IMG/VR virus record: IMGVR_UViG_3300005340_000005
DNA: 64,000 nucleotides
Direction: 5' to 3' (one strand)
Source of the DNA: an uncultured virus (IMG/VR IMGVR_UViG_3300005340_000005)
Taxonomy: Duplodnaviria > Heunggongvirae > Uroviricota > Caudoviricetes
Shown here: positions 651 to 59,690 of the stretch, in pieces
Layout: every line of letters starts with the position of its first letter
How positions within the stretch are numbered: the stretch's first letter is position 1
The notes under the pieces: model-generated
The model's database searches: none
What the model saw: the letters and a program-made list of their open reading frames with translations, nothing else
What the model was told of the DNA's origin: nothing
Made by a program: the position numbers and the translations under genes

Positions 651-1400
651 ATGCCAACGACTTGCACGGTTTGCACACATCCGAAGGCCAAACAGATCGA
701 CCTGGAGATCATCCGTGGCCAACTGTCGAACATCAAGCTCGCCAACAAGTACGGTTTCGCGTCTGAGCGAAATATCCGCGATCACAAGAAAAAACACTTA
801 GCCGCTCGCATTGAGGGCGCGCTCAAGCGCAACACCGAACGGCGCGAGATCGATCTGCAAGCCGAGCTCTCGGCCTGCTTTCGTCGGATCAACCTGCTGC
901 TGAACGCTTGTCACGAGTGGCTGCTTGATCCTGACAATCCCGAAGCCTATTCGCTAGACTCGAGAGCCGAAGAGATCACGGTGATTTACAACCAGCCGAA
1001 CGAAGAGGGCGGTCGAAGTCGGAGGGTAAAAGCCAAGTTGCAAGCGCTGTTGGATCAGATCAACGCGAAGCAAACAGCGGCGGGCAAACGCACGTTCGAA
1101 TGGATCGAGACGAAGCGCGCGGATCCCCGCCGGCTGATCCTCCAAGCGTCGGAAACTTTCGACAAGCACCTGCGAATGCTTGGCGATCTTACGGGAGTTT
1201 TCCGCCAACCGCAGAAGAACCCGCTGGATGTATCACGTGAAACGTACGAGGAGTTAATCGGGATGTTTCTGTCCTTGGCGCAGAGCGTGAATCCCGACGT
1301 TGAACGTCCTGCTGTAATCGAACTGCTTCGCGATATGCCGACCACGATTGGTGAGTTCTTGCCGTTCGTCGAGCAGGAGTTGAAAGCCTACGTGAACTGA
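651..1400 (+). CDS. putative terminase small subunit (CxxC + HTH)
   Basis: N-terminal CTVCTHP followed by a helical HTH-like segment; first gene of the morphogenesis block. Confidence 0.5.
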   Translation: MPTTCTVCTHPKAKQIDLEIIRGQLSNIKLANKYGFASERNIRDHKKKHLAARIEGALKRNTERREIDLQAELSACFRRINLLLNACHEWLLDPDNPEAYSLDSRAEEITVIYNQPNEEGGRSRRVKAKLQALLDQINAKQTAAGKRTFEWIETKRADPRRLILQASETFDKHLRMLGDLTGVFRQPQKNPLDVSRETYEELIGMFLSLAQSVNPDVERPAVIELLRDMPTTIGEFLPFVEQELKAYVN

Positions 1401-1404
1401 GCTT

Positions 1405-1620
1405 ATGAGCACAGCCGTCCTCCGAATCTACACTCCCCTGTCTGACCGTCGCAAGCGGCAGACCTTTCGTGCTGCTGGCGTTCAGTGGGCTGCGGTCAAC
1501 GGCGAAAAGGTTCACGTCAAGCCCAAAGACCTCGATGCCGAGTGGTTTGAGATCGTCGTTCCCGCGCCGCCCTGCGAGTGCCCAAAGTGCCTGCTCGAAG
1601 AGGGGACAATCGGATGCTGA
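1405..1620 (+). CDS. hypothetical protein, C-terminal CECPKC
   Basis: Tightly packed ORF. Confidence 0.55.
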   Translation: MSTAVLRIYTPLSDRRKRQTFRAAGVQWAAVNGEKVHVKPKDLDAEWFEIVVPAPPCECPKCLLEEGTIGC

Positions 1621-2117
1621 CTTCCGAACAGATCGCGGAAAAGGTTTATGTCGAGTGCTATGCCGTACTCGTTGGGACCCCGACTGTTAGCCTGAAAACC
1701 GGAGAGGTCGAGGGGTTGAGTCCTTCGGTTCCTTTCGACAAGTGGGAACACGCAGCCGATCTGATCAAGCTCACTGACTTCCGCCTGAACAACCCGAATC
1801 ACCCTCTCGGGTCGCACCATTTGCATTACGTTTCGCTGCTTGAGTCGCGAGGCCAGGATCACCCGCAAAAGCGATTTGAGTTGCTGACGCCCGAGGATGT
1901 CGAGCAGGACCTGCGGGTCACGAAGGCAATCATCGCACTACGTCCCCAGTGGGAACACGCCGCGTATTCGAATCCGCAGGAGGAGGCGCTGAAGGAACTC
2001 AAGCCCGATTGCGAATGTGGGCATCCGTATCACGTTGGCCTGTGTCCTGCGCTCGAGACAGGTGGCGCATTCACTCGCTGTTGCGCGTGCGACGAGTATG
2101 AGCCGGAGGAAGTATGA
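1614..2117 (+). CDS. hypothetical protein with C-terminal Cys/His zinc-binding motif
   Basis: ATG 1614 after GAGGGG; CECGHPYH...C...CCACDEY; stop overlaps the next ATG. Confidence 0.65.
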   Translation: MLTSEQIAEKVYVECYAVLVGTPTVSLKTGEVEGLSPSVPFDKWEHAADLIKLTDFRLNNPNHPLGSHHLHYVSLLESRGQDHPQKRFELLTPEDVEQDLRVTKAIIALRPQWEHAAYSNPQEEALKELKPDCECGHPYHVGLCPALETGGAFTRCCACDEYEPEEV

Positions 2118-3577
2118 ACATCGCAAGCGTTCTCTCCAGTCTTGGCCGCGTCCGGCAACGGCCGGGCGTTGTTCCCGACGATGAGACAGACAACCTGCCG
2201 TCGTACTCTCAGCCTCAGCCGGTGGACGCTGCTTCCGCTCGCGTTGCTTCGAGTGCTGGTATTCCAACTGCGCCAGACCTGACCCCTCAAGCTGCATTCA
2301 ATCGGTCAATGACCCGTGTTCAGGGAACGCCTGCTCCTGATCCATTCGCAACGCGCGTGTCCCCGGCGCCGGCAGTTGTTGCGCCGACAGCTGGCCAGGT
2401 CGATGGGCACGTTGCACAAGAACGCGTCCCCAGCTACGAAGACATTCCGATGCCGCCCAAAGCGCCGGAGCTCGCCGACGTAAAGCCTTCGACTCCGATG
2501 CCGACGCGCGAGATGCACCACGGCGGTGTAGGTTCGCGATTGAAAGACGCGGCGAAGTTCGGACTGCGCAATCTCCTTCTCTCGGGCTTGAATCCAATCT
2601 CCGCACTAGGCGCTTTCACCGGTGCAATGGTGAATCCGCAAGCTGAACACGATCAGAAATACAACCGGGAGATGGCAACTTGGGAGCCTCGAGCGCAGGC
2701 TGAGATGAGCGTGATCGAGCAGGCAAACAAGGGGAAGATTCAACAGGGCGCGGCGCAGAATCAGTACTACGACAATCTGACCGGGCGAGAGAAGCTCATC
2801 GACTCTCGGGTTGCCAGAACGCAGCGCGAACAGGATCGAGCGACTACCGCAGGAGAACGTGTCGCGACCCGTCAGGATACTGAAGCGCAACGCAAGCATG
2901 AGCAGGCCAAGGATCACGTAACGTTCAATGCGGCGCACGGTCTGCCGAATGACCCCGCGATCGTGAAGGGGACTGTGTACGAGAGCCTCGGGGGGAAGAC
3001 GATCTCGCCTGATAAGGTGCCTCATTTTGAAGCTGGCGGCCGGCTGATGTATGACCCGAACACGAAGGCGCTTGTTCCTTCGCCTGGCGCCGAGAATTTG
3101 CCGCCTGACTCCGGAGCCGCGGGGCGCGAGCAGTCCGAACGGCATTTCCAGGCCACACAAAGCCGCCAGGATCTGAAGGACGCGGAAGCGCAAGATGAGA
3201 AAGCCAAGAGTCTTGCATTGAAGTACAACGAGACTCGAGCCAAACACGCGCAAGCCAGCAAGGAATATGGCGAGATGATGACCGAGATCGGCAACCCCTC
3301 GGGTAAGGACACGAAGGGTAAGCCCCTGCCGGTGTGGAAGGGCAAAGTGATCAGCGAGGCCGATGCCAAAGAAAGGCAGATGGAAGCCGACAGGCTCGAA
3401 GAAGAACTGAGCGGCATCAAGCAGGTGGCTGGCGGACATCCAAGTCTTGAGTTTGATGACACTGGGGCTGTGAAGTTCAAGCCTCGCGCGAGTCAGTTCA
3501 CCAGTCCAGCCGCAAACTCGACCGCTGGGTCGAGAGTCGGCGGAACGAAGAAAAAGAACAGCGGATTACTCGATTGA
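2114..3577 (+). CDS. putative internal virion/ejection protein (487 aa)
   Basis: Pro/Ala-rich N-terminus, Gly-rich hydrophobic segment, Q/E/K-rich helices; shares motifs with the giant protein. Confidence 0.55.
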   Translation: MNIASVLSSLGRVRQRPGVVPDDETDNLPSYSQPQPVDAASARVASSAGIPTAPDLTPQAAFNRSMTRVQGTPAPDPFATRVSPAPAVVAPTAGQVDGHVAQERVPSYEDIPMPPKAPELADVKPSTPMPTREMHHGGVGSRLKDAAKFGLRNLLLSGLNPISALGAFTGAMVNPQAEHDQKYNREMATWEPRAQAEMSVIEQANKGKIQQGAAQNQYYDNLTGREKLIDSRVARTQREQDRATTAGERVATRQDTEAQRKHEQAKDHVTFNAAHGLPNDPAIVKGTVYESLGGKTISPDKVPHFEAGGRLMYDPNTKALVPSPGAENLPPDSGAAGREQSERHFQATQSRQDLKDAEAQDEKAKSLALKYNETRAKHAQASKEYGEMMTEIGNPSGKDTKGKPLPVWKGKVISEADAKERQMEADRLEEELSGIKQVAGGHPSLEFDDTGAVKFKPRASQFTSPAANSTAGSRVGGTKKKNSGLLD

Positions 3578-3963: not shown

Positions 3964-6900
3964 ATGGCCTTCAGCGCCTACGATGATCCGGAAGAACCCG
4001 ATTCCCCGCCTGCTAATACCGGCGTTGCCTTCACTCGCGTTAAACCAAACCTTAAAACCCCAGAGGGCCGCCAGCAATTTCTCGTAGACGAATCCATCCG
4101 CCAGAAGGTAGACCCGGCGTTTACGGGCGCGATCTTCAAGACTGAGAGCGGTCGCAATCTGAACCCGACAGCCCGGTCTCCGGTCGGGGCTCGAGGCGCT
4201 GCGCAGATAATGCCTGGCACCGCCGTTCGTATCGCGCGTGCGTTGAAGACTACTCCCGACAAGGTGCTCAACGATCCTGAAACGAATATGCGCGGCGGCG
4301 TGTACGAGCTTCATCGCCTGCTCGTCAACAATCAGCATCATCCTGACCCGAAGGCGGCGGCGGCCGTCGGCTACAACGCGGGCGAAGGTGCGATCCCGAA
4401 GTACAACCCGAAGACCGGCCGTCATCCGTATCCTGAAACGAACAACTACGTCGCGAAGGTGAAACAGGAGGATGCTCGCCTTGCGCCGAAACTATCGAGT
4501 TATGTACAGACGTATCAGCAGAGAGTGAGGACCCAGAATGGCACAGTACGATCCAGTAGTAGTGGAGGAAATGATACTCAGCGATCAACGCCGGGAATGC
4601 CGGGAAGTAATCAACCTCAACCGGGAGATCCGACTTCGACAACAGCACAGTCTCGGCCGGATGCTCCTGCGCAAACGCCTTTCCAACCTCTCAACTTCCC
4701 TTCCCCCGCGATCGAGCGAGGCGGATTCTTCAAGGGTGCCGATACTCCACAATCTGACCCGCGAGCAGGAGGACCGGCTTCTGGAACTGCTCAACCTCCG
4801 ATCTCCGTTGACCTACGAGGAGCGCAAAGCGGAACTCCGCAAGCTTCTGGGGCCTTTGCCCGAGTAGGCGGACCGCCCCCGCCAGAGGTCAAGCGAGCAG
4901 CGCTCGAAAGCGAGGCCGCCAATGGAACTGGCGCGCTGCGTCGCGATGCCAAAGGCGCGCCTCAAACTTGGGATGGCTACCCGGCGATCAAGAATGCTGA
5001 CGGCTCCATCACAACCGAACGCTCAATCACGATCACTGATCCGAGAGTCAACGGCGGGAAGCCGACAAACATTCCTTCGGTCTGGCAAGGCAAGCAGCTT
5101 TCGCAAGAGGATGCGATCGCGCAAGCCGCCGGATCGAAGCAGCCGTTCGCAGCGTTCGACTCGATCGATGAGGCGGTGAAGGCAGCAGAGGGACGTTCAG
5201 CGCAGAAAGGGAGGGAGCTTGACCAAACCAACCCTCCGCGACCTGTCGAAGGCGCTCAAGGATCCGTCGTTCCGCCCGTTCGAAGCGGGGCGCGGGCTGG
5301 AAGAAAACCTGCGGCTGTATCTCCAGCGCAAGCGCAGCTCCCTCTCCTCGACCTCACCCCAGAGGAAACAGCCGACGTCACTCGACGAGCAACCGCAGAA
5401 GGAGTGGCCCCGGAAGAGGCGCTGAAGTACGCGGCCGAGGAGAAGAAGGCAAAGGGCGCTCTCGCTCCCGTGAGTGCAGCAGGCCCACAGGTGACCGATG
5501 TGCCCGATCAGGCGGATGGACACGTCGCGCAGCACGTCGATCAAGTAGTCGCGCCAAAGCAATCAGGTGGCGATGGTTTCAGGATCAACGTCAAAGAATT
5601 TCAGTCTGCCGGCAAGGCCCCCACGATTCAGGATGTCAGCACGAAGATCGCCGAACGGATGGGATTCACTCCAGAAGAGGCGCAGGCCTACACCGAAGCG
5701 ACTGGTAAGAATCCGTTCTTTGAGTTGAATCCGGAATACGACGAGCCGACGGCAATGGCAAAGATGATTGGCCGCGCCGACGAAACCGGAGACGTAGCAA
5801 TCCCAGCCATGGCGCCGGACGTTGATGCTCGGGCGAAGTCCTGGCTGACTGAGTATCGAGCGAAGCAGGTTAAGCCTGCTCTGGCCGGACCTGCTACTCC
5901 ACCCGAAGAATCCATCGAAGGCCCACTTGAAGTTCCCGAACGCGCTTACGAGCTGCAGCATCCAGAGGAATCAGAAGACGCGCTCGATAAGCTGGAGAGC
6001 GGAATCAACACCGGTATCAAGGGCATCCGAACGTTTCTCAGTGAGCCAATGGCAACCGTCGGGAGCCTGATGAATGCTCCACAGGCGCTCACGAAAGCCA
6101 CTACTCCTGAAATGCAGCGCATAGCCGCTGAGCAATCGCAGGTTGACGCCGAGATGAAGCAGCTGCAGTCAAAGATGATACAGGCCGACGTCCAGCGCGG
6201 CGGGCCGGGAGATCGACCCGCGTCGCCCGATCCGATGATGGAAGGGCCGGATGCGGACCGCTATCGCGAACTGCAGGCGAAGCGCGATCAACTAACCGGA
6301 CAACTGGAAGCTGCCTCGCGTCCCGAGAACGGCATTGGTAATCGCGTTCTTCAGGGCGCCCAGAATATCGAGGAGCGGGGACTTCAGCCGGGACTCGCGA
6401 AAGACATAGTGAAGGGCGCAGGCGGCGCGGCGACAGCGTTGGGCGTGGGTATGGCGGCGGGCCCATATGCCGCCCCTGTCTTGGGCGGAATGCACACGCT
6501 CGAGCGGATCGGCCAAGGTGCGCCGACTGGTAAGGCGATCGGCGAAGGCATCGTTTCTGCCGGCAGCATGGGGGCAATGAGCGGCGCGGCCGGTGCGATA
6601 GATAAAACAGCGCTCAGCTACTTCTCGAAGCTCGCGGCTCGATCGCTGGCCAATACAGCAATCGGACTCGGGTCGCAAATGGTCGAGGGTGGCGACGTCG
6701 ATCTGAAGACGCCGGAGGGACGACGGGCATTTCTCACTGGCCGCATCTTCGACGTTGGGTGGGCGATCGCGCATTCCCCTGCGGGTCATGGGCTCAGCGA
6801 AAAGGAAATTGCAGAGAAAGCTCACGATCAAGTAGCCCGGGAGCTTCAAGGAGAACCCCATGCCGAAACAATACGAAGCGATAAAAGAGTCGTATCTCAA

Positions 6901-9900
6901 CCAGGGCGACTCGGAGAAGGAAGCGAAGTCAAAGGCGGCGGCGACGTTCATAGCGAAGGGCAAGGGAGGAAGCCGGTCGAGCCGGGCCAGGTCTCTACAC
7001 GCGGACCAGCCAGACCCAAAGAAACACCAGGCGGCGTATCAGCGGGTGAAGCCAAAGAAGTAGGACTTCAACCGGGCGACATCGTTAGTCGTCCCGGACT
7101 CTCGCACGGCCAGCCAATGACGGTCGAGTCGGTCGAGGGCAACACGGTGATGATCAGGCGCGCCGATGGAAAAGGCAGGGTGGTGTCCGCACCGGCCAAC
7201 AGGTTGAACGTCGTCACTAGGGTCGAGCCGTTACCTACGGTCGCGACAGAGACCGTGACAGCTTCGAACGTCGCACCGGAGCCAACCGTTACAACCGCTC
7301 CACCTGCGCGTGACAGAACGGATGACATCGAGAACCGGGCGGCTGACACCCTTCCTGTCGGTAAAACTCCTGAGGTGCCAAGCGGTGGGCAGCCTACGGA
7401 GCCTCAGCCCCCCGCGATACCTGAGCGTCGAGGAGTTGATCGTCGCACAGGCGATCAGGGGCCGCCGCGAGAGGGGGAGAGGCGCGGGCTATTTCGCCGG
7501 ATGCGGGATCGTGCGGGCGATCTGATTGCGCCTGAGAACGCCGCGATTCGAGAGGCGGCAAAACAGGAAGCGAGAACGGACGCTCTGACCGGAGTCGGGA
7601 ATCAGCGAGCGTGGCAGGATGTTCGCGAAAGCGTCGATGCCGACCCTGATCGCGCTATCGTTCACGGCGACTTGGACAACTTCAAGATCGTCAACGACAC
7701 GCATCCCGATAAGTACAGGGCTGGCGATAAAGCTCTCGCTGCCGCATTCGGCCAGGCTCAAAAGATCGCAACAGAGATCGACCCGACCGCGAAAGTCTAC
7801 CGCTCTGGTATCGGCGACGAAATGACCATCGATTCAGCGGCGGGTAAGGAAGCCGAGATCGCAAAGGCGATCAACGAAGGTGTCCGCGTCAAAATCGGCG
7901 AAGGGTTCGACGATGTAACGGTGTCCACCGGTCACGGGAAGACTTACGACGAAGCCACGGTCGCGATGGGTAAGAATAAGACTGCTGGCAAGGAGGCCCG
8001 CGCAGCTGCAAAGGCTGACGCTGAGCCCGGTAAGGTTCACAAGTTCAGTTCAACGCAGGTTGATCTTCCAAAGGAGCAAGCCGGACCGGTCCTCGATATG
8101 GGGCGCTCGATTCCGGACGCCGAACTCGCGGGCGACGGTCGAGAAACTACTCCGCACATCACCGTCAAATATGGACTCCACACCGCAGATTCCGAGAAGG
8201 TAAGAGCCGCTCTCGCTAACGCTGCACCGATCACGGCGACGATAGGAAAGACCTCCGCCTTCAAGGGCGTCGAGAACGGAACTGCCGATGCGGTGATCGC
8301 CGAGGTTGACAGTCCTGATCTTCATCGACTGAACAAGATCATCGCCGATGCTCTGCCGCATACCGACACTCACCCGGAGTACAAGCCACACGTGACAGTT
8401 GCGTACGTGAAGCCGGGGCTCGGCGAAAAGTACTCCGGCCGGAACGATCTCGAAGGCACGAAGATCACGCTCAAAGAAATCACATTCAGCAACAAGGATG
8501 GCGGGACGACAACAATTCCGCTGGGTGAAAAGACCGAACCTGCCGAGCCTCATCATTCAACCTTCCAACCTCGCGACGAGGGCGGTCACTTCGATGGTCC
8601 GCCTCGCGGTCCTGAGCGTCGACAAACTCTTTACGATCGACTGGCAGCCTCTCGACAAACCGAGCATCACATCCCTGAGACTCCAACGGCCGATGAACAC
8701 GCGGGACTATTCCAGGCGAGCGGCCTGAGTACTGTTGAGACCGATCGCGTTCGCGCCAAGTATGAGGACCTGAAGAAGCGCGGCGAATCTGTTGAGGATT
8801 ACCTGCGTCAGGGCGGTCTGTTTGGGGATGAGTTAAGCGAACCACAGCAACAGCTACTAAGGGAGATGGCGGCACCGAAGAGCAGGCGAGGGTCGGCTGC
8901 GGAGCAAGGCGCGCTGTTTGATGCGGCGCCAACGGTTGAGAGTCGAACGGCGGCCAAGGCGGAGCCCGTTGAGCGTGCGAAGTCTCCGCTGGAGATCGCT
9001 GGAGAGAAGGCAGAAGATCCCGGCTATGAAGAGGACTACCAGGAGTTCTTGGCTCTTCACAGTAAAGGGAGCAAGGCCCGGCTGAACGCCGAAGACTGGA
9101 AGCGCGCGCAGCATCTCCATAAACAACTCGGCCTCGACCAGCCCGATACCCGGCCTTTCAGCGAACTACTAACGGTTCCTAAGAGCCAAGCTGAGCGGTC
9201 TGGGAACAAAGAGGGGCTCTTCCAAGCCGATACCGAAGAGGGCCACCGCATTATGCGCGAGGTCGTTGACGACTTCCATAAGGAAGGCATTCGAGACTTT
9301 CGCGAAGCTGCTCGAAAGTTCCGCGAAGAGTTTGGGCCAGCCAACGAGTATTCCAAGATGTTCGAGCAGGCCTGGGACGCTCACGAGGGAGTTAAGAAGC
9401 GCGGGCGCCTGACCTACGATCGGGCAATGGAGGAACCCGCGGCGAGAGGCAAGCGCGCCGTCGAGGATATGACCCTGAGCCAATACGTGCGACGCGAAGG
9501 CGGCCTGAACCCTAACGAGTCCGACGAGGTACGAGAGCTTGTAGGTCAGAAGCAGTCGGGCACCTCCGGGCTGATGAATGAGAATCAGAAGACGAAGATT
9601 CACGAGCTGAAGGCGCAGGCCGAAGCCGAAGGGTTTGTCCAGGAGGGGATGACTGATCACGAGTTCATCCAGGCAGTGGCCGATGATGCGCTCGGGCGCA
9701 AGGTCAGCAGTCATCCCGGGAAGCAGGAGCGCGACGCCGATGCCGAGTGGGAACAAACGAAACAGGATGAGTTCGCGAAGGACTCCGATCACTCCGTTAT
9801 GAGTGCCGCATTTGACAAACCCAACGATCCCGCGTATAAGGAATGGACAGGTGCTTTCGAATCGCTGAACAAGACAGGGAGTGACGAGGATGCTCAATTC

Positions 9901-57767: not shown

Positions 57768-58135
57768 TGCCACGCAATATGAGCTTCTCCAAAACTACTC
57801 CACAGGTTCGCGCCCGCACAAAAACGGTCACTCGGCGCACCGGTTGGTGGTTCCTGAAGCCTGGCGAAATCGTGAACGCGATCGAGAAGGGGCAGGGGCT
57901 CAAGAAGGGCGAGGAGGTAGTTGTCATCTGTCAGATTCGTATCGTCAGCACGCGGCCTGAGCCTCTGTCTCGCCTCATAAAAGACACTGCGTATGGATTC
58001 GGCGAAACCACTAAGGAGGGATTCAAGGACCATCCTGAATTGCAGTGGCCCGGGGTCTTCGCTGAGTTCTTCTGCGCCCTCAACGGGTGCGAGTTGGATA
58101 CAGAAGTCAACCGGATCGAGTTTGAATATGTCTGA
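57767..58135 (+). CDS. ASCH/PUA-like protein
   Basis: MSF..T..Q...KTVTRR, EGF, RIEFEY. Confidence 0.75.
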   Translation: MPRNMSFSKTTPQVRARTKTVTRRTGWWFLKPGEIVNAIEKGQGLKKGEEVVVICQIRIVSTRPEPLSRLIKDTAYGFGETTKEGFKDHPELQWPGVFAEFFCALNGCELDTEVNRIEFEYV

Positions 58136-59690
58136 CAAATCAGCAATCGAATGGACCGAGGCGACCTGGAATCCGACGCGCGGATGCTCGATGGTCTCGC
58201 CGGGCTGCACGAACTGTTATGCCATGAAGCAGGCGCACCGCTTCTCTGGCGACAGCAGGACTACGAAGGCGGGCACGCGCACTGGGCCTCAGGCGTACTC
58301 GGGGCTCACTCGCTTGACCAGCAACGGGCCTGTTTGGACGGGCGAGGTCCGCCTTGTCGAGGCAAAGCTAGAAGTACCACTGCGTTGGAAGCGGCCGCGC
58401 CGAATCTTTGTCAACTCGATGAGCGACCTGTTCCACGAAAGACTGAGCGACGAGCAGATTGATCGAGTCTTCGCCGTGATGGCGCTCTGCCCGCAGCATA
58501 CCTTTCAAGTGCTCACTAAGCGCGCAGAGAGGATGCGCGACTACCTCTGCAGCCGCGATACCTGGATTCGTCTGACCGAGCGGATCTTCAGAACCGTCTC
58601 GAAGTACAAGCTCGATGAATTCCTTCTTCTGCAATGCACCTTCGAACAAGACGAGCGATCCTTTGTCAACATACCGATTTCCAACGCTTGGCTCGGCGTC
58701 TCCGTTGAAGACCAGAAGACCGCAGACGAGAGAATCCCCTGGCTCCTCAAGACTCCTGCCGCTGTTCGGTGGGTGAGCGCGGAACCTTTACTCTCGTCCG
58801 TGGATCTGTCAGAATATCTCAAAGGACACACACCGAATGACAAAGGACGATCAGGCATTCTTGGCGCTGTTGGCGATCGGCGTATTCTCGATAGACGACA
58901 AGGGGCGTATCTGGCGACACCGGCGGCTGATAGCCGGGAGCAAAATCGGGTCGCCCCCGTTTTGGAAGGATTTGCCCAAGAAACGCCGGGCGGAAACCAG
59001 CAGTTCCGGGAAGAGGCGGGAGAACTCCAGCATTTATCTACGAGTGATGTTCACGACTGTCGGGGACAAGCGATGGAGCGTGGATGCGCATCGGGTTGTC
59101 TGGATGACAGCCAACCAAAAGGATATTCCGCCAGCAATGGAACCCAACCACAAAAACGGGAACGGAGCCGACAACAGACCGGAGAATCTCGAACTCCTGA
59201 CCCATCCGCAGAACACTCTCCACGCGATCCACGAATTGGGCAAGATCGCTCGACCTCGGAAGATGAACGGCGACAAGCTGACACCCGCTCAAGTGTTAGA
59301 GGTTCGCAGTCTCTGCGACCAGAAGGCGATGGCGCGGAGCGAGATAGCGAAGCTGTACGGTCTGAGTCTCAATTCAATCGTCAACATAGCCAACCGCAAG
59401 ACCTGGAAATATATCCCCGAGTTGACTGGGTAATAATCGGCGGAGAATCCGGACCTCATTCCAGACCCTTCGATGTCCAGTGGGCGCGAGACACCATCGC
59501 GCAATTCCGAGCCGCCGGCGTGCCCGTGTTTGTGAAGCAAATGGGCAGCAAGCCAACTACCGACCACCGGACGCGACCCAAAGACGAAGGAGCTCACTGG
59601 ACGACTCTTCTCAAAGACAAGAAGGGCGGCAACCCGGATGAATGGCCAGCGGATCTACGCGTCCGCGAATTTCCGGAGGTCGCAAAGTGA
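58128..59690 (+). CDS. DUF5131 (Gp37/Gp68-like) protein with a ~200-aa insertion
   Basis: IEWTEATWNPTRGC..VSPGCTNCYA, FVNSMSDLFH, LTKR, SAEPLL, DWVIIGGESG, FVKQMG. Confidence 0.88.
   Translation: MSDKSAIEWTEATWNPTRGCSMVSPGCTNCYAMKQAHRFSGDSRTTKAGTRTGPQAYSGLTRLTSNGPVWTGEVRLVEAKLEVPLRWKRPRRIFVNSMSDLFHERLSDEQIDRVFAVMALCPQHTFQVLTKRAERMRDYLCSRDTWIRLTERIFRTVSKYKLDEFLLLQCTFEQDERSFVNIPISNAWLGVSVEDQKTADERIPWLLKTPAAVRWVSAEPLLSSVDLSEYLKGHTPNDKGRSGILGAVGDRRILDRRQGAYLATPAADSREQNRVAPVLEGFAQETPGGNQQFREEAGELQHLSTSDVHDCRGQAMERGCASGCLDDSQPKGYSASNGTQPQKRERSRQQTGESRTPDPSAEHSPRDPRIGQDRSTSEDERRQADTRSSVRGSQSLRPEGDGAERDSEAVRSESQFNRQHSQPQDLEIYPRVDWVIIGGESGPHSRPFDVQWARDTIAQFRAAGVPVFVKQMGSKPTTDHRTRPKDEGAHWTTLLKDKKGGNPDEWPADLRVREFPEVAK
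58837..59433 (+). CDS. HNH homing endonuclease nested in the +1 frame of the DUF5131 gene
   Basis: AHRVVW...NHKNGNGADNRPENLE...N..H; C-terminal HTH (KLT..QV.E...EIAKLYG......I...TWKYI); AAAGGA upstream. Confidence 0.88.
   Translation: MTKDDQAFLALLAIGVFSIDDKGRIWRHRRLIAGSKIGSPPFWKDLPKKRRAETSSSGKRRENSSIYLRVMFTTVGDKRWSVDAHRVVWMTANQKDIPPAMEPNHKNGNGADNRPENLELLTHPQNTLHAIHELGKIARPRKMNGDKLTPAQVLEVRSLCDQKAMARSEIAKLYGLSLNSIVNIANRKTWKYIPELTG

What the first reader, a model, noticed from the sequence alone, without database searches (positions are those of the whole stretch)
4538..7063. Series of SD-equipped genes nested in the +1 frame of the giant protein's linkers
Seen: ORFs 4538-4867 (GAGG), 5219-5425 (AAGGGAGG, TTG start) and 6860-7063 (AAGGAG) are all in the +1 frame. 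Each lies where the host frame becomes low-complexity, and each translates to a helical, protein-like sequence. A weaker candidate is 9983-10075. The frame relation matches the nested HNH gene. Inference: GC-rich third codon positions keep the -1 frame of a gene open, so the polyprotein may have grown by reading through small genes that are still expressed. This would be a recurring overprinting strategy in this genome.
Basis: partly seen in the sequence, partly recalled or inferred. Interest (0 to 1): 0.72.

Follow-up and report, generated by a model that had tools for sequence, protein, structure and literature searches.

The report
Small gene nested in giant gene
Inside the gene for a 3957-residue phage protein, a second reading frame carries at least one real, conserved small-protein gene with its own ribosome-binding site, and the same small gene sits the same way inside giant genes of many unrelated phages, so one stretch of DNA appears to serve two proteins.

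Summary
The three ORFs exist as described, each in the +1 frame of the giant ORF 3964-15837 with the stated SD-like motifs. ORF length is unremarkable and the SD count is only marginally above chance. The real signal is codon usage: in these stretches the host frame uses atypical codons and the +1 frame typical ones.

ORF3 (6860-7063) is a genuine gene. It has 16 small homologues (53-74 aa, E down to 6e-12) and a confident three-helix model. In 15 other contigs the same family lies wholly inside 1005-3099+ aa polyvalent-protein ORFs in the same +1 relation.

In nested copies:
- The small-gene frame is the one under purifying selection.
- An SD is kept in 12 of 16.
- The host frame is kept open against odds of 0.0005-0.14 per locus.

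ORF2 (5219-5425) is probably real over its first ~37 codons. The evidence is codon usage, a strong SD, one 77% homologue conserved only there, and a switch of substitution phase.

ORF1 (4538-4867) is not conserved in a close relative. Its helical part is a 34-codon strain-specific insertion, most likely a captured coding fragment. 9983-10075 has no support.

Expression is untested. Verdict: interpretation partly supported, and for ORF3 strongly.

The parts
3964..15837 (+). Host gene: a 3957-aa multidomain (polyvalent-type) phage protein. Domains found are SLT lytic transglycosylase 46-152, GGDEF-like 1204-1295 and 2'-5' RNA ligase/Acb1-like 1395-1483.
   Evidence: ORF, Pfam. One large homologue, P0006 (2612 aa, 44-48% identity), is continuous across the regions matching linkers 2 and 3. 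L023 is continuous across linkers 1 and 2.
6848..6853 (+). Shine-Dalgarno AAGGAG of nested gene ORF3, 6 nt before the ATG.
   Evidence: Read. It is the same type as the SDs of the phage's ordinary genes. An SD core is present in 12 of 16 nested family copies, against a base rate of 22 of 197 (p=4e-9).
6860..7063 (+). Nested gene ORF3 (67 aa, +1 frame of the host). It belongs to an uncharacterised small-protein family, MPxQYExI...AKxxAAxTF/IYN, with three helices and a basic tail. In the host frame the same bases encode a low-complexity linker, residues 966-1033.
   Evidence: 16 homologues of 53-74 aa, E 6e-12 to 2.4e-4, aligned from M1. AF2 pLDDT is 83.7 with helices 3-14, 19-33 and 39-48. Host codon z is -3.7 and +1 z is +0.4. 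It is nested in 15 other giant ORFs. Selection acts on the nested frame.
5207..5214 (+). SD-like AAGGGAGG before the TTG start of ORF2. It is also the point where the relative L023 changes from about 90% to 100% identity with the window.
5219..5425 (+). Nested ORF2 (68 aa, TTG, +1 frame), probably a real nested coding sequence over codons 1-38 (5219-5332). From about 5333 the host frame again carries the normal signal.
   Evidence: N part: host z -2.0 and GC3 0.42, +1 z +2.4 and GC3 0.82. C part: host z +0.4. Homologue P0023 (67 aa) is identical at 35 of 36 N-terminal residues but only 16 of 30 C-terminal (Fisher p=2e-5). Variant contigs: 16 of 16 listed substitutions in 5076-5199 fall at host position 3. 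In 5245-5301, 5 of the 7 listed for run X9 fall at nested position 3.
4538..4867 (+). Nested ORF1 (109 aa, ATG, weak GAGG SD at 4527-4530). It is not conserved as a protein. It is best read as a host linker containing a captured coding-like fragment.
   Evidence: In L023 the +1 ORF is 70 aa and diverged, while the host-frame motif PFQPLxFPSPAIExGGFFKGA is kept. No homologues were found other than itself.
4753..4854 (+). 34-codon in-frame insertion relative to L023. It reads in the +1 frame as the helical segment ...LTREQEDRLLELLNLRSPLTYEERKAELRK...
   Evidence: Protein alignment. Over 4736-4864 host z is -3.4 and GC3 0.33, while +1 z is +0.9 and GC3 0.77. Contigs in two runs skip 4737-4959 (table 5).
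9881..10075 (+).
   Evidence: Host z -2.4, +1 z -1.3. The host translation looks like a folded helical domain. Pfam and PHROG gave only E about 0.1.
7259..7522 (+). Further +1 open stretch with the same codon-usage anomaly (host z -2.7, +1 z +0.8) and no SD. It lies in a segment absent from P0006. Status unknown.

Best explanation
The giant gene is a polyvalent-type phage protein gene, and some of its inter-domain linkers are laid over small coding sequences in the +1 frame.

ORF3 (6860-7063)
- It is a functional overlapping gene. Ribosomes start at its own AAGGAG-ATG inside the giant mRNA and make a 67-aa, three-helix, basic-tailed protein.
- Ribosomes translating the giant gene read the same bases one position earlier, as a disordered linker.
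- The small gene's frame is the older, constrained one. The giant gene's frame over it is the younger one, required only to contain no stop codon.
- The small gene belongs to a mobile family that occurs free-standing or nested in many phages. The giant ORF therefore most likely came to include it by insertion or read-through (inferred).

ORF2 probably works the same way over its first ~37 codons.

ORF1 is a strain-specific linker expansion made from a coding-like fragment, not a conserved gene.

Shown: dual-frame openness, homology, the selected frame and SD conservation. Inferred: actual translation of both frames, the direction of evolution, and the function. My guess at function is an accessory nucleic-acid-binding or counter-defence factor co-transcribed with the polyvalent protein, held at low confidence.
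For: 1. Homology. P0004 has 16 homologues of 53-74 aa in 1.84e9 proteins, aligned from Met1. Invariant columns are M1, P2, Y5, K23, I31, G34 and L46. The N-terminal 33 aa also match PHROG 32268.

2. Fold. AF2 gives pLDDT 83.7 and three helices.

3. Codon usage. Host-frame synonymous z is -3.7 and +1 z is +0.4. Host GC3 is 0.43 against 0.65+-0.06 expected.

4. Recurrence. A scan for MPKQYExI gave 31 viral loci plus one MAG contig. In 16 loci (15 contigs) the 44-67 aa ORF (14 aa in L054) lies wholly inside an ORF of 1005-3099+ aa in the same frame relation. Those hosts carry polyvalent-protein domains (SLT, ddrB-ParB, InPase, ART-PolyVal, LPD38, Zeta toxin, N6_Mtase, AAA_34) on both sides of the nested gene. 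Their flanks are not homologous to one another.

5. The host frame is kept open by selection. P(open) per locus is 0.0005-0.14, with a product of 2e-30 over 16 loci. T at nested position 3 is 3%, against 22% in free copies. T before AA/AG/GA occurs in 0 of 138 cases against 42 of 143 (p=2e-14).

6. The nested frame is under purifying selection while nested. Nucleotide entropy at positions 1/2/3 is 0.73/0.75/1.10, and amino-acid entropy is 1.13 (nested) against 1.64 (host). Within all-nested clades, position 3 carries about twice the differences, and host amino-acid differences are about twice the nested ones.

7. An SD is kept in 12 of 16 nested copies (p=4e-9).

8. P0006, 44-48% identical in the giant protein, can encode PKKYEAIRDQLVQKGEQEKQAKTKGAKTF in its +1 frame at exactly the homologous site. 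That is the best of 2560 positions.

9. Contigs in runs X7 and X9 share only 6859-7051 with the window (about 87-91% identity, other flanks). 13 of the 15 listed differences are at nested position 3 (p=3e-5).

10. ORF2: as listed under parts.
Against: - No RNA, ribosome or protein data were seen, so translation of either frame is inferred.
- The scan pattern required MPKQYExI, so the start codon and N-terminal motif are conserved by construction. Confirmation by tblastn favours intact copies.
- One nested copy (L054) is cut to 14 aa, and 4 of 16 lack an SD core.
- The contexts of the 16 library homologues are unknown, so some may themselves be nested.
- P0006's best possible +1 peptide scores 40.7 against 92-102 for an intact copy, so its third helix may be lost.
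- ORF2 rests on one close homologue without DNA and on a truncated list of variants (17 differences not shown). Counting the variants of both runs, only 5 of 9 changes are at nested position 3. A mosaic, recently exchanged segment could mimic its conservation.
- ORF1 has no homologues and is not conserved in L023.
- Pfam, PHROG beyond the N-terminal module, and Foldseek all give no function.
Confidence: 0.78

Rival explanations
1. Fossil gene starts. The +1 ORFs are dead remnants of once-separate genes that were swallowed when neighbouring genes fused into the giant ORF. SD, start codon and codon bias simply have not decayed yet.
For: - The host frame has the younger-looking codon usage.
- ORF1 is not conserved in L023.
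- ORF2's +1 signal stops after about 38 codons, where the host frame takes over.
- One nested family copy is truncated (L054).
- P0006 can encode only part of the family motif.
Against: For ORF3:
- 15 of 16 nested copies keep a full-length ORF.
- 12 of 16 keep an SD.
- Differences within nested-only clades concentrate at nested third positions, with half as many amino-acid changes as in the host frame.

An unselected relic would not survive at 36-65% protein identity.
Confidence: 0.12
2. Chance ORFs. Hydrophilic, low-complexity linkers have few T at codon position 2, so the +1 frame cannot form stops. Purine-rich coding sequence throws up SD-like words.
For: - +1 stretches of >=60 codons are common in this gene: 22 of them, up to 164 codons.
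- The SD excess is marginal.
- This reading fits 9881-10075 and the first two thirds of ORF1.
Against: - It does not explain host GC3 of 0.39-0.51 against about 0.66 expected, nor the normal +1 codon usage.
- It does not explain the 16 homologues of ORF3.
- It does not explain the recurrence in 15 other contigs.
Confidence: 0.05
3. The giant ORF is not one gene. Separate genes flank the small genes, and the host frame merely happens to stay open across them.
For: No direct evidence that the 3957-aa product is made. Free-standing arrangements of the small gene exist, for example L044, just behind a giant ORF's stop.
Against: - The host frame is open across the small gene in 16 loci, with per-locus chance 0.0005-0.14.
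- T is purged from nested third positions.
- P0006 and L023 are continuous over the same junctions.
Confidence: 0.03
4. Frameshift isoform. Ribosomes on the giant gene shift +1 near 6860 and terminate at 7063, giving a truncated giant protein tipped with the small domain. There is then no independent small protein.
For: Nothing specific. The frames and the stop codon would allow it.
Against: - Family members begin with Met exactly at this point when free-standing.
- An SD precedes the ATG in 12 of 16 nested copies.
- No shift-prone motif was looked for or seen.
Confidence: 0.02

Closest known systems
Rz/Rz1 spanin genes of phage lambda (recalled from general knowledge, not from a call)
   Same: A small gene with its own start lies wholly embedded in the +1 frame of a larger gene on the same strand, and both are translated from one mRNA.
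   Different: Rz1 and Rz are two subunits of one machine, and the host gene is small. Here the host is a 1000-4000-aa multidomain protein, and the overlapped part is a disordered linker. The nested gene is a mobile family that is also found free-standing in unrelated contexts.
Overprinting in small viruses, e.g. phiX174 E in D and B in A (recalled); review PMC8227390 (abstract seen)
   Same: Two proteins are read from one DNA stretch in different frames. One frame is constrained, and the other is compositionally odd and likely disordered.
   Different: In classical overprinting the nested frame is the new one. Here codon usage and free homologues indicate that the nested small gene is the old frame. 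The large gene's linker is the new frame, laid over it by read-through or insertion.
Polyvalent proteins of phages and conjugative elements (Iyer et al. 2017, PMC5512222; abstract and two passages seen)
   Same: The host ORFs are very long arrays of conflict-related domains (SLT, ART-PolyVal, InPase, ddrB-ParB, LPD38, Zeta toxin, methylase) joined by linkers.
   Different: The text contains 0 occurrences of 'frameshift', 'overlapping' or 'linker', and its one 'reading frame' passage concerns neighbouring cassettes. It does not describe genes nested in another frame.
PHROG 32268 (361-aa profile, function unknown)
   Same: Its first 33-45 positions match the N-terminal two helices of the small protein. 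L029 and L034 carry 174-178-aa forms.
   Different: Only the N-terminal module is shared. ORF3 and most relatives are 44-74 aa.
HNH gene inside the DUF5131 gene of this same window
   Same: A recognisable gene (HNH_3, E 3.8e-12) sits in the +1 frame of a host ORF that stays open across it, with P(open)=0.0001.
   Different: It interrupts a folded domain rather than a linker, and it is a homing-endonuclease-type gene. No group I intron model matched.

Membership tests
Same-strand nested (overlapping) gene pair | Both reading frames are open over the whole nested ORF. | tested here: met
   for all three ORFs. for 15 other contigs.
Same-strand nested (overlapping) gene pair | The nested frame encodes a protein with independent homologues. 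| tested here: met
   ORF3 has 16 homologues, plus free-standing copies with stops in the host-equivalent frame. ORF2 has only one homologue, at 77% identity. ORF1 has none.
Same-strand nested (overlapping) gene pair | Purifying selection acts on the nested frame while it is nested. | tested here: met
   For the ORF3 family, variation by codon position and amino-acid differences within nested-only clades show this. No formal overlapping-gene dN/dS model was run. ORF2 is suggestive only. ORF1 does not meet the criterion.
Same-strand nested (overlapping) gene pair | The host frame is maintained, i.e. translated through. | tested here: met
   P(open) is 0.0005-0.14 per locus, with product 2e-30. 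T is depleted at nested position 3.
Same-strand nested (overlapping) gene pair | Both products are detected (RNA, ribosome footprints, peptides). | not testable with these tools
   Only DNA runs were found and laid.
MPxQYExI small-protein family (unnamed) | Invariant M1, P2, Y5, K23, I31, G34 and L46; length 44-74 aa; helix-helix-helix plus a basic tail. | tested here: met
   Alignment A3 and model.
PHROG 32268 | Match over most of the 361-position profile. | tested here: not met
   Only profile positions 1-33 match (E 6.7e-5). ORF3 shares a module and is not a member.
Polyvalent protein (host ORF) | One polypeptide carries several unrelated conflict-related domains, in a phage. | tested here: met
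   SLT, GGDEF-like and 2'-5' RNA ligase/Acb1-like domains were found. Homologue P0006 lists PF18760 (ART-PolyVal, named), PF08291 and PF00990 (GGDEF, named). GGDEF and Acb1 score below Pfam's cut-offs.
Pfam/NCBI-named family for the nested proteins | Any curated family hit. | tested here: not met
   Pfam gave 0 families for P0002-P0004. It gave nothing below E 0.046 for the 17 family members. NCBIfam was not searched.

The most novel reading that the evidence does not exclude
Giant polyvalent-protein genes of phages are built over independent small genes as a rule. Mobile small genes with their own ribosome-binding sites sit in the +1 frame of the linkers, and the giant ORF grows by reading through them. 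The small proteins are made by internal initiation from the same mRNA, so they are an unannotated second layer of the phage's injected or early arsenal. ORF3's family would be the first recognised member. ORF2, the ORF1 fragment, the nested HNH gene, and the candidates L043 6129-6419 and L042 6639-7100 would be further instances.
Probability: 0.35. Interest if true: 0.9.

Novelty: new variant of a known kind. Interest (0 to 1): 0.8.

Why it matters
Gene callers forbid same-strand nested genes, so this small-protein family is invisible wherever it lies inside a giant ORF. The finding gives a sequence-level case, replicated across 16 contigs, in which a long gene has been laid over an older small gene. 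That is the reverse of textbook overprinting.

It suggests how polyvalent proteins gain linkers and length. It points to a hidden set of small proteins co-transcribed with phage counter-defence arsenals.

It also makes a testable prediction: internal initiation at AAGGAG-ATG, with both frames needed. This can be checked with reporters or metaproteomics.

Tried and rejected
Searches that found nothing useful
- DNA similarity of 3964-7300 to 50,697 phage records: no match.
- First scan of viral contigs with the N-terminal 1113 aa: no relatives. P0006 as query: none.
- No whole genome is held for this window, and there are no earlier notes on it.
- tblastn of P0002, P0003 and P0004 against phage records: nothing, or one chance hit at E 0.7.
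- Paralogue search of all six +1 products in the window and the loci: only self hits and E>0.008 noise. The repeated weak ORF1 hits were judged low-complexity noise, because the host N-terminus shares only residues ~283-430 with those loci.
- P0002 near-length search: only itself. Viral scan: none.
- P0003 viral scan: five loci, L060-L064. One of them, L060, was opened, and the match there lies in a 62-aa ORF that overlaps a longer opposite-strand ORF. All five share the same 26-residue match at ~50% identity and were judged chance.
- ESM Atlas for the ORF1 C-part and for ORF2: no usable hit.
- Foldseek of the ORF3 model against PDB and BFVD: nothing at E<=0.001. RuvA and integrase rows at E about 1 were ignored.
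- Pfam and PHROG on other codon-anomalous +1 stretches: nothing.
- Rfam over the HNH region: no intron model.
- Exact search for the upstream flank of the 6859-7051 look-alike contig in viral contigs: 0 matches.

Tests that were inconclusive
- Threading ORF2 and the ORF1 C-part through P0006: the homologous site was not the top score.
- Neighbours of free-standing family copies are structural, replication or packaging genes, with no consistent context, so they give no functional clue.

Limits of the read-laying data
- Parts of 4400-7400 had no contig cover in some runs. This is not interpreted.
- Whether the look-alike contig is itself nested cannot be told. The host-equivalent frame is open in the 30 nt shown on each side.

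A complex prediction was not run, because no binding partner is claimed.

Full report
**Setting.** The window is a phage-like contig. L022, from a metagenome collection, is the same DNA. Runs holding it are rhizosphere or soil metagenomes.

ORF 3964-15837 encodes 3957 aa. Pfam finds an SLT lytic transglycosylase (46-152), a 2'-5' RNA ligase-superfamily/Acb1-like domain (1395-1483) and a weak GGDEF-like region. The only large homologue found is P0006 (2612 aa, 44-48% identity). Its precomputed Pfam entries are PF18760 (ART-PolyVal), PF08291 and PF00990 (GGDEF). This is the polyvalent-protein type described by Iyer et al. 2017 (PMC5512222; abstract and passages seen).

**Observation.** 9983-10075 is the tail of the +1 ORF 9881-10075.

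Three tests against chance:
- ORF length is unremarkable. The +1 frame has 22 open stretches of >=60 codons in this gene, up to 164.
- SD evidence is marginal. 22 of 197 +1 starts have a 4-mer SD and 7 have a 5-mer. Only 5219 and 6860 combine a 5-mer or better with >=40 codons. The phage's ordinary genes use the same AAGGAG-type sites.
- Codon usage is the real anomaly. With the host protein held fixed and codons redrawn from the phage's usage, host GC3 should be about 0.66. It is 0.39, 0.51 and 0.43 in the three ORFs. The +1 minus host likelihood beats all 5000 resamples.

Among the 22 long +1 stretches, only five have host synonymous z <= -2.1. These are 4529-4864, 5180-5422, 6836-7060, 7259-7522 and 9869-10072. 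In four of them the +1 z is normal (-0.2 to +1.9). At 9869-10072 the +1 z is -1.3, which is inside the range of the 17 control stretches. Those controls show a normal host z and mostly negative +1 z. A sliding comparison against other genes is less striking. The +1 frame wins in 21 of 391 windows of the giant gene and in 31 of 1126 windows of 39 other ORFs, some of which I may have mis-chosen.

**ORF3 is a real gene.** An exhaustive phmmer search of 1.84e9 representative proteins with the 67-aa product found 16 proteins of 53-74 aa. E-values run from 6e-12 to 2.4e-4 and identity from 50 to 66%. All are aligned from Met1 through about residue 50. The consensus is MPxQYExIKxSYxxxGxSxKxAKxxAAxTFIAxGKGGxRSSRAKSLHxD. 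With that alignment AlphaFold gives pLDDT 83.7, with helices 3-14, 19-33 and 39-48 and a floppy basic tail. No Pfam family matches. PHROG 32268 shares only its first ~33 positions. Foldseek finds nothing significant. A full-text search for the motif found no paper.

**The arrangement recurs.** I scanned IMG/VR for MPKQYExI with an alignment of seven members. 39 stretches matched, 33 were confirmed, and these gave 31 loci. A scan of species genomes gave one contig, from a Planctomycetota MAG.

In 16 of these 32 loci (15 contigs, since L036 and L037 are one contig) the small ORF lies entirely inside an ORF of 1005 to more than 3099 aa. That ORF is in the frame one base earlier, which is the window's arrangement. 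The small ORF is 44-67 aa, except in L054, where it is cut to 14 aa.

Those host ORFs carry polyvalent-protein domains. The domains found are SLT, ddrB-ParB, InPase, ART-PolyVal, LPD38, Zeta toxin, N6_Mtase/Eco57I and AAA_34/Helicase_C_4. By my arithmetic from the coordinates, these domains lie on both sides of the nested gene in L028 and L043. The host sequences flanking the nested gene are not homologous between loci.

The other loci hold free-standing copies, or 174-178-aa forms, in structural, replication or packaging neighbourhoods. In L044 the small gene starts 19 nt after the stop of a >=1659-aa ORF. That ORF's C-terminal part matches the part of the L030 host that lies downstream of L030's nested copy.

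On a short-sequence tree, nested and free copies intermix. It needs 7 changes (bootstrap range 5-8), and well-supported branches force at least 2. The window's copy falls in a supported clade of five nested copies.

**Both frames are maintained.** For WIN plus 29 loci (duplicates L037, L048 and L053 dropped), I redrew the small protein's codons from each locus's usage. The host frame then stays open with probability 0.0005-0.14 in the 16 nested cases, and the product is 2e-30.

Nested copies have 3% T at their third positions, against 22% in 13 free copies. T before AA/AG/GA occurs in 0 of 138 cases in nested copies and 42 of 143 in free copies (p=2e-14).

The small-gene frame nevertheless carries the constraint:
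- Nucleotide entropy at nested positions 1/2/3 is 0.73/0.75/1.10.
- Amino-acid entropy is 1.13 in the nested frame and 1.64 in the host frame.
- Within nested-only clades, third positions carry about twice the differences. Nested amino-acid differences (10-18) are about half the host ones (21-26).
- An SD core lies 5-18 nt upstream in 12 of 16 nested copies. The base rate in the window is 22 of 197 under a slightly different spacing rule (p=4e-9).

The scan pattern forces the Met and the first eight residues, so those are not independent evidence.

**Relatives of the window itself.** P0006's DNA could not be fetched. I threaded a family profile through all +1 peptides that its protein sequence permits. 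The homologous site came first of 2560 positions (40.7; next best 24.5; an intact copy scores 92-102). The best encodable peptide is PKKYEAIRDQLVQKGEQEKQAKTKGAKTF. The nested gene is therefore probably old at this site, perhaps with a changed tail.

Contigs of two runs match the window only over 6859-7051 (18 and 24 differences) and have different flanks. 13 of the 15 listed differences are at nested third positions. Whether that copy is itself nested cannot be told.

**ORF2.**
- Codons 1-38 (5219-5332) show host z -2.0 and GC3 0.42, against +1 z +2.4 and GC3 0.82. After that the host frame is normal.
- The strongest SD-like site in the gene precedes it.
- L023, a 2.2-kb contig of a close relative, is about 90% identical up to 5205 and 100% identical from 5206 on. 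A recombination boundary therefore lies at the SD.
- Its only homologue, P0023 (67 aa), is identical at 35 of 36 N-terminal residues and at 16 of 30 C-terminal residues (p=2e-5).
- In variant contigs, all 16 listed substitutions in 5076-5199 are at host third positions. In 5245-5301, 5 of the 7 listed for X9 are at nested third positions (p=0.045). Pooling both runs gives 5 of 9, and 17 differences were not shown.

I put the chance that ORF2 is a live nested gene at about 0.55.

**ORF1.** L023 keeps the host-frame motif PFQPLxFPSPAIExGGFFKGA. Its +1 ORF, however, is a diverged 70 aa. The window's helical +1 segment corresponds to a 34-codon in-frame insertion that is absent from L023. That insertion has a strong +1 coding signature: over 4736-4864, host GC3 is 0.33 and +1 GC3 is 0.77. 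No homologues were found. It is best read as a captured coding fragment that enlarges the linker. I put the chance of a functional gene at about 0.15.

**How it most likely works.** One mRNA is read in two ways. Elongating ribosomes read frame 0 through a disordered linker. Other ribosomes initiate at the internal SD-ATG and make the small protein, as in lambda Rz/Rz1 (recalled).

Codon usage and the free homologues make the small gene the older frame and the linker the newer one. This is the reverse of classical overprinting (review PMC8227390, abstract only).

GC-rich third positions alone do not keep the host frame open: P(open) is 0.02 for ORF3 and 0.0001 for the HNH gene. Selection does.

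The small protein's function is unknown. My low-confidence guess is a co-transcribed accessory or counter-defence factor with a nucleic-acid-binding tail.

**Not in print, as far as searched.** This rests only.

Noticed in passing
window 57993-59690 and 58837-59433: An HNH_3 endonuclease gene (198 aa, E 3.8e-12) lies in the +1 frame inside a DUF5131 ORF, whose Pfam match is split into two stretches. The host frame stays open across all 198 codons, although resampling gives P=0.0001, and it reads there as about 200 aa of low-complexity sequence. No group I intron model matched.
   Followed up: partly
L043 6129-6419; L042 6639-7100: A blind codon-usage scan of the other giant ORFs recovered the MPKQYE cassette in 7 of 16 hosts. 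It also flagged these two further +1 stretches (97 and 154 codons, host z -5.5 and -4.7). The first translates to a protein-like sequence. Pfam and PHROG found nothing.
   Followed up: partly
window 4950-5200 (host residues ~330-415); L001-L027: A small host-frame domain (WDGYPAIKN.DGS..TE.SIT....NGGKPTNIPS) is shared at 42-64% identity with 26 other viral or metagenome loci that otherwise do not resemble the giant gene. It has no Pfam hit here.
   Followed up: no
window 5206-5675 vs L023 1753-2222: There is a sharp mosaic boundary. L023 is 100% identical to the window over 470 nt, directly after a stretch at about 90% identity. Upstream, the linker 1 region differs by in-frame indels of 34 and 14 codons. 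This indicates recent recombination inside the giant gene.
   Followed up: partly
window 7259-7522 and 8411-8725: Two more +1 open stretches lie over host low-complexity segments. One has a host codon-usage anomaly (z -2.7). The other wins the sliding likelihood comparison at 8494-8733. Neither has a convincing SD or any family hit.
   Followed up: partly
L044 3-4982 and 5001-5204: A free-standing family member begins 19 nt after the stop of a >=1659-aa ORF. On the tree it sits inside a well-supported clade of nested copies (L030, L032, L038). This looks like an unfused or re-split state of the same association.
   Followed up: partly
L029 5001-5525; L034 5001-5537: Longer forms (174-178 aa) carry the same N-terminal module, followed by an HPGHPM-containing extension that several short nested copies also have. 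They sit in a head and structural gene neighbourhood.
   Followed up: no
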